Assembly: GCF_056746865.1 (NCBI RefSeq)
Contig: NZ_CM163382.1
DNA: 64,000 bases
Direction: 5' to 3' (one strand)
Position numbers: made by a program. The first letter of the stretch is position 1. Every line of letters starts with the position of its first letter. Positions 60,289-63,200 of this stretch are shown here, one piece after another.

Positions 60289-63200
60289 TTAAGCGCGCGC
60301 TTCAACTCACCCCTGCAATATTTTGTCCATCACGCGCCCCGGCAGCAGGCGCTTAAGCACCATTACTGCCCAGGTCACCAGCGTTACCGGATAGCGCATC
60401 TTCGGTTTCTCGCTAATAAAAGCATGGCGTACTTTGTCGACCACCGCTTCCGGTCCCAACGTAAAGCGGGCGGCGATGCCAGGATTTTCGACTGGTTTAT
60501 CACTTTGCGTCTGGTTGACGTTGTCGGTGAAGCGAGTACGAATGGGACCGGGTTCGATCAGGCTAACTTTAACTCCGCTGTGGCGCAGCTCCATGCGCAG
60601 CGCATCCGACCACGCCTCCAGCGCATATTTACTGGCTGCGTAAGCGCCGCGACCCGGCGTGGAGATTAATCCCATCACCGATGAGGTCATCACAATACGC
60701 CCTTCACCGTGCGGTAACATCGCGGGTAACAGGCGCATGGTGAGCTGGTGAGCGCCGAAAAAGTTGGCAGAAAACTGCTGTTCCATCTGCGCACGGCTGA
60801 TGGTGGAAAGGGGGCCATACATGCCGAATCCGGCATTGTTAAAGATCCCATACAGACAATTATCGGTCAGGGCGATCACTTCGTCGGCTGCGCGATCAAC
60901 ACTTTCTGGTGAATCCAGATCGATCAACACGCCGGTAAATCCCATGCTGTTCATGCGCTCAACATCATCCGGTTTCCGGCAACCTGCCAGCACATGAAAA
61001 CCCTGGCGTTTTAATTCGAGCGCGCTTTCCAGGCCAATTCCACTGGAACATCCGGTAATTAAGACCGATTTTTGCATAACTTTACCTGTCAGGATCTCCG
61101 TTGCTTTATGAGTCATGATTTACTAAAGGCTGCAACTGCTTCGCCATCCAGTCGGCAATAAACGGCTGGGCGTCGCGGTTGGGATGAATACCGTCATCCT
61201 GCATCCATTGTGGCTTGAGGTAGACCTCTTCCATAAAAAAGGGCAGCAGCGGAACATCAAACTCTTTGGCGAGTTTGGGGTAAATGGCGCTAAAGGCTTC
61301 ATTATAACGGCGACCATAGTTTGCAGGCAGACGTATTTGCATTAACAATGGTTCAGCGTTGGCGGCTTTGACATCCTGCAAAATCTGGCGCAGCGTCTGC
61401 TCGGTTTGTTGTGGCTGAAAACCACGCAAACCGTCATTGCCGCCCAGTTCTACCAGCACCCAGCGCGGCTGATGCTGTTTCAGCAGAGCCGGAAGGCGCG
61501 CCAGCCCTTGTTGCGAGGTGTCGCCGCTGATGCTGGCATTGACTACCGACGTTTTATTCTGCCACTTATCATTCAACAAGGCAGGCCAGGCCGCGCTGGC
61601 AGACATTCGATACCCGGCGCTCAGGCTATCACCCAGAATCAATAACGTGTCCGCTGCGGCGGCACGGAAGGTTAACAGGACCAGGAACAGGAAGGGCAAA
61701 TGCCAGCGGAAAACATTGTTGAAGTTCATCATCTTAAGAAGTCCGTCGGTCAGGGGGAGCATGAACTCTCCATCCTCACCGGAGTTGAGCTGGTTGTCAA
61801 ACGTGGCGAGACCATCGCACTGGTGGGCGAGTCGGGATCGGGTAAGTCAACCTTGCTGGCGATCCTCGCCGGGCTGGATGACGGCAGCAGTGGCGAAGTG
61901 AGTCTGGTGGGACAACCGCTACATAATATGGACGAAGAAGCGCGGGCAAAGTTGCGCGCGAAGCACGTCGGCTTTGTTTTTCAGTCATTTATGTTAATTC
62001 CTACCCTTAACGCGCTGGAAAACGTCGAGCTTCCGGCGCTGCTGCGCGGTGAGAGTAGCGCGGAAAGTCGTAACGGAGCGAAAGCGTTGCTCGAACAGTT
62101 AGGGCTGGGTAAACGTCTGGATCATCTTCCGGCACAGCTTTCCGGCGGTGAACAGCAACGAGTGGCGCTGGCACGAGCCTTTAACGGTCGACCTGATGTG
62201 CTGTTTGCCGACGAACCCACCGGCAACCTTGACCGCCAGACCGGCGATAAAATTGCCGACCTGCTGTTTTCCCTCAACCGTGAACATGGCACCACGTTGA
62301 TTATGGTGACCCACGACCTGCAACTGGCGGCACGCTGCGACCGCTGCTTACGGCTGGTGAACGGGCAGTTGCAGGAGGAAGCATGATTGCACGTTGGTTC
62401 TGGCGCGAATGGCGTTCGCCGTCGCTATTAATTGTCTGGCTGGCGCTAAGCCTGGCGGTGGCCTGCGTGCTGGCGCTGGGCAATATCAGCGATCGCATGG
62501 AGAAGGGCTTAAGCCAACAAAGCCGGGAGTTTATGGCGGGCGATCGGGCGTTGCGCAGTTCGCGCGAAGTGCCGCAAGCATGGCTGGAGGAAGCGCAAAA
62601 GCGCGGCCTGAAAGTCGGCAAGCAGCTGACTTTCGCCACCATGACATTTGCAGGCGACACACCGCAGCTGGCGAACGTTAAAGCGGTGGATGATATCTAC
62701 CCGATGTATGGCGATCTGCAAACCAATCCCCCTGGCCTGAAACCGCAGGCGGGCAGCGTATTGCTGGCCCCACGCCTGATGGCACTGCTTAACCTAAAAA
62801 CGGGCGACACCATTGACGTGGGCGATGCCACCTTGCGGATTGCCGGAGAAGTGATTCAGGAACCGGATTCCGGTTTTAACCCCTTCCAGATGGCTCCGCG
62901 TCTGATGATGAATCTGGCGGATGTCGATAAAACCGGAGCCGTGCAGCCGGGGAGTCGGGTCACCTGGCGCTATAAATTCGGCGGCAACGAGAACCAGCTC
63001 GACAGCTATGAGAAATGGTTGTTACCTCAGCTTAAACCCGAACAACGCTGGTACGGTCTGGAACAGGACGAAGGCGCGCTGGGGCGCTCGATGGAACGCT
63101 CGCAACAGTTCCTGCTGCTTTCGGCGCTTCTGACCTTGCTGCTGGCAGTGGCAGCGGTGGCGGTGGCGATGAATCATTACTGTCGCAGTCGCTACGATCT

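What the first reader, a model, noticed from the sequence alone, without database searches (positions are those of the whole stretch)
61700..61732. Divergent tesA and ybbA overlap at their 5' ends
The corrected tesA start (61732, minus) and the ybbA start (61700, plus) overlap by about 33 bp, so each gene's promoter must lie inside the other's coding sequence. This is a compact arrangement with potential for transcriptional interference.
Basis: seen in the sequence. Interest (0 to 1): 0.2.

Follow-up and report, generated by a model that had tools for sequence, protein, structure and literature searches.

The report
tesA and ybbA head-to-head overlap
Two E. coli genes that point away from each other, tesA and ybbA, really do share their first 30-33 bases, so each promoter sits inside the other gene, but this rare layout is already annotated and published.

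Summary
ybbA (+) starts at 61700. tesA (-) starts at 61732 in the K-12 annotation or at 61729 in the PGAP annotation, so the coding sequences overlap head-to-head by 33 or 30 bp.

The ybbA start has no alternative. It is the first start codon in its frame, ATG in 81/81 species, and ABC-domain homology begins at residues 5-10. For tesA, only the second ATG (61729) is universal (81/81). The first is ACG in 16 of 81 Enterobacteriaceae species, so the conserved overlap is 30 bp.

Published transcription start mapping in K-12 (Kim 2012) puts the tesA start at window 61764, which is 65 nt inside ybbA. It sits behind a TTGACA -35 box that is invariant in 81 species. Weak ybbA starts lie 155-387 nt inside tesA.

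Synonymous sites in ybbA codons 1-40 and tesA codons 2-21 are frozen, whereas later 10-codon bins of both genes have almost no invariant synonymous codons.

Five more distant relatives (41-53% TesA identity) keep the divergent pair 2 bp overlapping to 52 bp apart.

None of this is new. MG1655 RefSeq annotates the overlap, the 2025 YbbAP-TesA paper mentions it, and ExcludonFinder (2025) lists tesA-ybbA as a divergent excludon. Transcriptional interference remains untested.

The parts
61700..62386 (+). ybbA coding sequence (ABC transporter ATPase of the YbbAP-TesA complex), start ATG at 61700
   Evidence: ORF. It matches the full length of the YbbA chains of PDB 9GE6/9GE7/9GE8 (E 2.9e-145), which carry a 14-residue tag followed by MPAENIVEV.... 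RefSeq annotation. The ATG is the first start codon in its frame and is conserved in 81/81 species.
61106..61732 (-). tesA coding sequence as annotated in K-12 (208-aa precursor). The alternative, universally conserved start is at 61729 (207 aa). The mature protein begins at codon 27 (ADTLL).
   Evidence: PDB chains 1IVN and 9GE8_T start at ADTLL, which is residue 27. Codon 2 is ATG in 81/81 species; codon 1 is ATG in 65 and ACG in 16.
61700..61732 (.). Head-to-head coding overlap: 33 bp, or 30 bp if tesA starts at 61729. The codons are antisense in register.
   Evidence: Synonymous sites are frozen here.
61772..61800 (-). tesA core promoter inside ybbA codons 25-34: -35 TTGACA (61800..61795), 17-nt spacer, -10 GAGGAT (61777..61772)
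   Evidence: This is the sequence upstream of the mapped tesA start in Kim 2012. The -35 is invariant in 81/81 species. The -10 is AAGGAT in 55 and GAGGAT in 26. ybbA Val33 is GTC in 79/79 and the third base of codon 32 is T in 79/79, while other Val codons vary. The consensus scan missed it because the -10 matches only 3 of 6.
61733..61764 (-). tesA 5' UTR (32 nt, from the start at 61764), antisense to ybbA codons 12-22. It contains a weak Shine-Dalgarno-like GGA (61744..61742).
   Evidence: Kim 2012 start site with 45 reads. Sequence read. The region ACCGACGGA(C/T)TTCTTAAG is nearly invariant.
61689..61696 (+). ybbA Shine-Dalgarno sequence AGGAAGGG, lying inside tesA codons 13-15 (Pro-Phe-Leu of the signal peptide)
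   Evidence: Sequence read. The AGGA core (61689-61692) is present in all 81 species, with variation only in the flanks and at 61693-61694.
61313..61545 (+). Interval holding the weak published ybbA transcription starts (61313, 61358, 61545), all antisense inside tesA
   Evidence: Kim 2012, 2 reads each. Cappable-seq start at 518615, score 2.45. Low confidence: the two data sets do not agree on a position, and directed mapping gave no ybbA product.

Best explanation
This is the E. coli tesA / ybbAP locus. Two divergently transcribed units encode partners of one envelope machine: the periplasmic hydrolase TesA and the type VII ABC transporter YbbAP. Their coding sequences overlap head-to-head by 30-33 bp.

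Shown:
- ybbA starts at 61700.
- tesA translation starts at the conserved ATG 61729 and/or the adjacent ATG 61732. It makes a 25/26-residue signal peptide whose N-terminal region is encoded antisense to YbbA residues 1-11.
- In K-12, tesA is transcribed from 61764 by a promoter with a perfect -35 and a weak -10. That promoter is written into ybbA codons 25-34.
- The only mapped ybbA starts are weak and lie 155-387 nt upstream of its ATG, inside tesA.

Inferred:
- The two promoters therefore face each other, and the two mRNAs are complementary over at least 220 nt, a stretch that covers both ribosome-binding sites.
- Polymerase collision and/or antisense pairing could couple or bias expression of the two partners. 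In the one data set that maps both genes, tesA is the stronger unit (45 reads against 2).
- The tight packing is ancestral, because relatives at 41-53% TesA identity have 2 bp of overlap to 52 bp of spacer. The 30-33 bp coding overlap is the version seen here in 81 Enterobacteriaceae species and in one relative of unnamed taxon at 70% TesA identity.
For: - Annotation and sequence.
- Identity of the proteins and their N-termini: mature TesA chains begin at ADTLL; the YbbA construct begins at MPAENIVEV; LolD, MacB and MJ0796 align from YbbA residues 4-10.
- Start-codon conservation in 81 species.
- Synonymous-site freezing in ybbA codons 1-40 (0.67, 0.5, 0.3, 0.3 against 0.0 later) and tesA codons 2-21 (0.88, 0.2).
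- ybbA His10 CAT in 79/79 and His11 CAT in 63/63, against mixed CAT/CAC at the six other His codons; Val33 GTC in 79/79.
- Nucleotide conservation peak at 61685-61804.
- Published start sites.
- Published statements of the overlap: PMC12646458 and PMC12288877.
- Distant relatives with spacing of -33, -2, 0, +21, +25 and +52 bp.
- Rarity: only 2 divergent overlaps among 663 overlapping adjacent pairs in E. coli (PMC4161906).
Against: - No direct evidence was found for which tesA codon initiates. The signal peptide is removed, so N-terminal sequencing of the mature protein does not help. No entry for tesA or ybbA was found in the one ribosome-profiling start-site supplement that I could search.
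- The ybbA start sites rest on 2 reads each or on near-threshold Cappable-seq scores. They do not coincide between data sets, and directed mapping failed for ybbA.
- Conservation in the overlap cannot be cleanly assigned to one strand, because both genes and the tesA leader constrain the same bases.
- The 81 species are related, so the counts are not independent events.
- Interference or antisense regulation has not been measured. Because the products form a complex, mutual exclusion would be an odd design.
Confidence: 0.9

Rival explanations
1. tesA actually starts at the TTG at 61699 (codon 12), giving a 197-aa protein that begins MPFLFL.... The two genes would then abut without sharing coding sequence, and the 33-bp overlap would be an annotation choice.
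For: Several pipelines annotate this form: KPN_00472 is 594 nt against 627 nt in E. coli, and many database entries of 194-197 aa begin MPFLFL or MAFLFL. Codon 12 can serve as a start (TTG or GTG) in 71/81 species.
Against: Codon 12 is TGG or CTG in 10/81 species, and Tyr in a more distant relative. The resulting signal peptide would have no N-terminal region and no positive charge ahead of the hydrophobic core. That is atypical by the standard n-h-c rule for signal peptides (general knowledge, not computed here). The ATG at 61729 is kept in 81/81 species, and ybbA His10 never uses CAC although other His codons do. No Shine-Dalgarno-like sequence precedes the TTG. Even on this reading the promoters still lie inside the neighbouring gene.
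Confidence: 0.06
2. tesA starts at the upstream in-frame ATG 61762 (218-aa ORF, MLPLTDGLLK extension), making the overlap 63 bp.
For: It is the first start codon of the ORF. Some database entries are 218 aa. The mapped start at 61764 would leave a 2-nt leader, so near-leaderless translation is conceivable.
Against: This codon is ATG in 42 species, GTG in 28, CTG in 9 and TTG in 2. It simply tracks synonymous and His/Gln variation at ybbA codon 21, so it shows no constraint of its own. There is no Shine-Dalgarno sequence, and a 2-nt leader is poor for both leadered and leaderless initiation (general knowledge). Curated annotations do not use it.
Confidence: 0.03
3. The overlap is real but functionally neutral. 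It would be a by-product of start-codon drift in an already tightly packed divergent pair, with no regulatory consequence.
For: Relatives show a continuum of spacing from -33 to +52 bp, which suggests drift of the starts. ybbA transcription is barely detectable in the mapped conditions, so collisions may be rare.
Against: The arrangement is fixed across 81 species, with frozen synonymous sites and an invariant embedded -35. Overlapping transcripts are reported in at least half of 58 transcriptomes. Neither observation proves regulation.
Confidence: 0.45

Closest known systems
tesA (b0494) / ybbA (b0495) of E. coli K-12 MG1655
   Same: Same genes, same orientation and same 33-bp annotated overlap. 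The 51 nt upstream of and including the mapped tesA start are identical to the window.
   Different: Only strain-level differences, such as TesA residue 58 being N instead of S. PGAP annotation of the matching strain starts tesA one codon later.
Divergent 'excludon' pairs (ExcludonFinder, NAR 2025, PMC12288877), e.g. acrA-acrR, epmB-efp
   Same: Neighbouring divergent genes whose transcripts overlap at their 5' ends. tesA-ybbA is itself on the published list of 16 for E. coli.
   Different: Most listed pairs overlap only in untranslated regions, whereas here the coding sequences overlap too. Mutually exclusive expression, which is the functional hallmark of an excludon, has not been shown for this pair. 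It would also be unexpected for two partners of one complex.
YbbAP-TesA type VII ABC transporter / lipid hydrolase locus (PLoS Biol 2025, PMC12646458; PDB 9GE6-9GE8)
   Same: Same proteins. [quoted passage not shown]
   Different: The paper does not analyse starts, promoters or conservation of the overlap. The embedded invariant -35 and the synonymous-site freezing were worked out here.

Membership tests
Divergent (head-to-head) overlapping gene pair | Two protein-coding genes on opposite strands, transcribed away from each other | tested here: met
   ORFs and annotations. Both products match solved structures.
Divergent (head-to-head) overlapping gene pair | The true translation starts lie such that the coding sequences share bases at their 5' ends | tested here: met
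   The ybbA start has no alternative. The tesA ATG at 61729 is conserved in 81/81 species with constrained antisense codon usage. The non-overlapping TTG is not conserved. Direct experimental proof of the tesA initiation codon was not found.
Divergent excludon | Transcripts of the two neighbouring genes overlap | tested here: met
   From the literature: the tesA start is at window 61764 and the ybbA starts are at or below 61545, so the overlap is at least 220 nt. The pair is listed by ExcludonFinder in at least 50% of 58 transcriptomes.
Divergent excludon | Expression of one gene represses the other (interference or RNase III processing) | not testable with these tools
   No expression or RNase III data for this pair were found.
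YbbAP-TesA locus | SGNH/GDSL hydrolase TesA next to an ABC ATPase and an FtsX-type permease | tested here: met
   PDB matches with E 1e-120 and 3e-145. ybbP follows ybbA. The same trio occurs in relatives, as Lipase_GDSL, ABC_tran and FtsX.

The most novel reading that the evidence does not exclude
The face-to-face promoters and the mutually antisense 5' ends may form a conserved device that sets the ratio or the timing of TesA relative to its transporter YbbAP. The first ~40 codons of ybbA would then do triple duty, as YbbA protein, as the TesA signal-peptide N-terminal region, and as the tesA leader and promoter. Strong tesA transcription would damp ybbAP by polymerase collision or RNA pairing.
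Probability: 0.25. Interest if true: 0.35.

Novelty: already known. Interest (0 to 1): 0.12.

Why it matters
Divergent coding overlaps are very rare in E. coli: 2 of 663 overlapping adjacent pairs in one survey. This one joins two genes now known to encode partners of a single envelope complex. It is therefore a clean natural case for studying promoters embedded in coding sequence and possible collision or antisense coupling.

It also has a practical side. Annotation pipelines disagree on the tesA start (218, 208, 207 and 197 aa), and the comparative data here favour the ATG at 61729/61732. As a discovery it adds little, because the overlap is already in the reference annotation and in two 2025 papers.

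Tried and rejected
- The consensus promoter scan of 61000-62500 found no sigma-70 site. It missed the mapped tesA promoter because the -10 matches only 3 of 6, so the scan was uninformative.
- Directed start-site mapping in Mendoza-Vargas 2009 gave no ybbA product. Its 454 entry for tesA is labelled -315 yet cites the same -35 box. I could not reconcile the label and did not use it.
- Thomason 2015 is not held.
- Conway 2014 and ExcludonFinder have no held supplements.
- The held part of the Cappable-seq table covers only the + strand, so it gave no tesA start.
- The Shimada 2014 list of constitutive promoters mentions ybbAP only in relation to the downstream rhsD spacer.
- The supplements of the tetracycline start-site ribosome-profiling paper had no entry for tesA or ybbA.
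- K. pneumoniae start sites for KPN_00472 and KPN_00473 were not in the held part of Kim 2012.
- The word-indexed protein search returned only close relatives. Distant relatives came from the representative-library search instead.
- One distant homologue (L091) sat on a 1.6-kb contig with no ABC gene called next to it, so it was uninformative.
- A small synonymous-conservation bump in tesA codons ~142-161 (the TAT AAT codons at 61301-61306) was considered as a ybbA promoter. It rests on one invariant site, so it was not claimed.

Full report
**What is there**

The window region is the E. coli tesA / ybbA junction. An 801-bp query (61300-62100) matches 5418 of 5426 complete E. coli genomes. Several matches are 100% identical and are annotated tesA and ybbA.

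ORF listing gives ybbA as 61700..62386 (+), 228 aa. It gives a minus-strand ORF 61106..61762 of 218 aa, whose 11th codon (61732) begins MMNFNN.... PGAP annotation of strain 118UI starts tesA one codon later, giving 207 aa and a 30-bp overlap.

Reading both strands shows the codons are antisense in register. tesA Met1 and Met2 pair with the ybbA His11 and His10 codons (CAT CAT). tesA His11 pairs with the ybbA ATG.

**Are the starts right?**

The ybbA start is secure:
- 61700 is the first ATG, GTG or TTG after the upstream stop in its frame.
- The next in-frame canonical start is the GTG of Val42, next to the Walker A motif (sequence).
- LolD, MacB and MJ0796 align from YbbA residues 4-10.
- The YbbA chains of PDB 9GE6-9GE8 consist of a tag followed by MPAENIVEV....
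- The ATG is conserved in 81/81 sequences.

For tesA, solved TesA chains begin at ADTLL, residue 27 of the 208-aa ORF. A signal peptide must therefore be encoded upstream.

I compared 80 Enterobacteriaceae species loci plus the window. The candidate tesA start codons behave as follows:

| Codon | Window position | Codon across 81 sequences |
|---|---|---|
| Codon 2 | 61729 | ATG 81 |
| Codon 1 | 61732 | ATG 65, ACG 16 |
| Codon 12 (would remove the overlap) | 61699 | TTG 67, TGG 6, CTG 4, GTG 4 |
| Upstream in-frame codon | 61762 | ATG 42, GTG 28, CTG 9, TTG 2 |

The species with ACG at codon 1 include Citrobacter koseri, Enterobacter cloacae, E. hormaechei, Kosakonia and Silvania. Salmonella and Winslowiella proteins also begin with a single M (MNFNT.., MNFKN..).

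A useful internal control comes from ybbA His codons. His10 is CAT in 79/79 and His11 is CAT in 63/63; the other 16 sequences have CGT there. The six other His codons of ybbA all mix CAT and CAC (42/26, 29/42, 42/30, 53/26, 31/41, 14/65). So the ATG on the tesA strand is itself under selection at 61729. At 61762 it is not. The conserved overlap is therefore 30 bp, and E. coli may use either or both adjacent ATGs.

**Promoters**

Kim et al. 2012 (PMC3415461, Table S1; column headings checked) map the following starts in NC_000913.2 coordinates. The table prints tesA as 518363..518989 and ybbA as 518957..519643, so window coordinate = NC_000913.2 coordinate minus 457257.

| Gene | NC_000913.2 position | Strand | Reads | 5' UTR | Window position |
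|---|---|---|---|---|---|
| tesA | 519021 | - | 45 | 32 nt | 61764 |
| ybbA | 518802 | + | 2 | 155 nt | 61545 |
| ybbA | 518570 | + | 2 | 387 nt | 61313 |

The 51-mer printed for tesA in that table is identical to the window sequence ending at 61764. The tesA start therefore lies 65 nt inside ybbA.

Upstream of the tesA start are a perfect -35 TTGACA (61800..61795), a 17-nt spacer and a weak -10 GAGGAT (61777..61772). The -35 is invariant in 81/81 species. The -10 is AAGGAT in 55 and GAGGAT in 26.

The synonymous positions of ybbA that fall inside the -35 are frozen. Val33 is GTC in 79/79 and the third base of codon 32 is T in 79/79, whereas other Val codons vary widely.

The held part of the Cappable-seq table (Ettwiller 2016, + strand only) shows weak + strand starts at 518615, 518388 and 518168. 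These map to window 61358, 61131 and 60911. There are none from 518616 to 523634.

The two mRNAs are complementary over at least 220 nt (61545-61764). The ybbA starts are low-confidence. They have few reads, the data sets do not agree, and directed mapping found no ybbA product.

**Extra constraint**

Mean nucleotide conservation peaks at 0.92-0.96 across 61685-61804, against 0.80-0.90 in the flanking coding sequence.

I also measured the fraction of degenerate codons that use a single codon in all species:

| Gene | Codons | Fraction never varying |
|---|---|---|
| ybbA | 1-10 | 0.67 |
| ybbA | 11-20 | 0.5 |
| ybbA | 21-30 | 0.3 |
| ybbA | 31-40 | 0.3 |
| ybbA | each bin from 41-50 to 211-220 | 0.0 |
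| ybbA | 221-228 (final bin) | 0.25 |
| tesA | 2-11 | 0.88 |
| tesA | 12-21 (carries the ybbA Shine-Dalgarno AGGAAGGG, 61689-61696) | 0.2 |
| tesA | later codons | essentially 0 (small bumps of 0.1-0.2 in three bins) |

The species are related, so these are not independent counts, but the contrast within the same alignment is clear.

**Wider distribution**

A search of the representative protein library, followed by contig look-ups, shows the same divergent trio of GDSL hydrolase, ABC ATPase and FtsX permease in more distant relatives. The taxa of these contigs are not named in the tool outputs.

| Locus | TesA identity | Spacing between the called starts |
|---|---|---|
| L083 | 70% | 33-bp overlap |
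| L084 | 53% | 2-bp overlap |
| L086 | 46% | 0 bp |
| L089 | 44% | 21 bp |
| L088 | 41% | 25 bp |
| L090 | 51% | 52 bp |

The tight head-to-head packing, and therefore embedded promoters, is old. The 30-33 bp coding overlap is seen here in the 81 Enterobacteriaceae sequences and in L083.

**What is known already**

- The overlap is in the MG1655 reference annotation.
- McAndrew et al. [quoted passage not shown] They show that TesA docks on YbbP to form a lipid-hydrolase complex.
- ExcludonFinder (PMC12288877) lists tesA-ybbA among the 16 divergent pairs with overlapping transcripts found in at least half of 58 MG1655 transcriptomes.
- Huvet and Stumpf 2014 (PMC4161906) count only 2 divergent overlaps among 663 overlapping adjacent pairs in E. 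coli. The text I read does not name the two pairs.

The arrangement is therefore rare but documented.

**Mechanism and rivals**

The best reading (confidence about 0.9 for the anatomy) is a genuine head-to-head coding overlap with face-to-face embedded promoters. Whether this produces interference or antisense control is inferred, not shown. I give roughly equal weight to a neutral by-product of start-codon drift in an already compact pair. I give about 0.25 to a real coupling device.

The TTG-61699 start (no overlap) and the ATG-61762 start (63-bp overlap) are both disfavoured by the conservation patterns above.

**Verdict**

Novelty is 'already known' and interest is low.

Noticed in passing
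window 61106-61116 (-) and 62383-62386 (+): The tesA stop overlaps the ybbO start by 11 bp (co-directional). The ybbA stop overlaps the ybbP start by 4 bp (ATGA). These are ordinary operon-type overlaps that flank the unusual divergent one.
   Followed up: no
window 61300-61313: The tesA codons Tyr143-Asn144 read TAT AAT, a perfect TATAAT on the minus strand; on the plus strand this is CATTATAA. The site lies just upstream of the 2-read ybbA start at 61313. The TAT codon is invariant in 64/64 aligned species. It could be the -10 of a weak ybbA promoter or of an internal promoter towards ybbO. Only about 3 such invariant synonymous sites exist outside the 5' region, so it may be chance.
   Followed up: partly
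window 61760-61764 (-): The mapped tesA transcription start (61764) lies 2 nt upstream of the in-frame ATG 61762 of the 218-aa ORF, so that AUG is nearly leaderless. The codon varies (ATG/GTG/CTG/TTG) in step with ybbA codon 21, so it is probably not a conserved start.
   Followed up: partly
tesA annotations in public databases (relatives of window 61106-61762): Annotated TesA lengths disagree widely for near-identical genes: 218, 208, 207, 204, 197, 194 and 189 aa, plus spurious fusions of 310-347 aa that read through the antisense of ybbA. This shows that gene callers handle the overlap inconsistently.
   Followed up: partly
Mendoza-Vargas 2009 supplement (tesA entry), maps near window 61791-61807: A 454 read assigned to tesA is labelled position -315. 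It is listed with the -35 box gccaCGTTTGACAacca, the same box that precedes the Kim 2012 start 32 nt upstream of tesA. I could not reconcile the position label.
   Followed up: no
window 61559-61561 (-), TesA residue 58: The window TesA has Asn where K-12 and the PDB sequences have Ser (KWQNKT against KWQSKT). This is a strain-level polymorphism.
   Followed up: no
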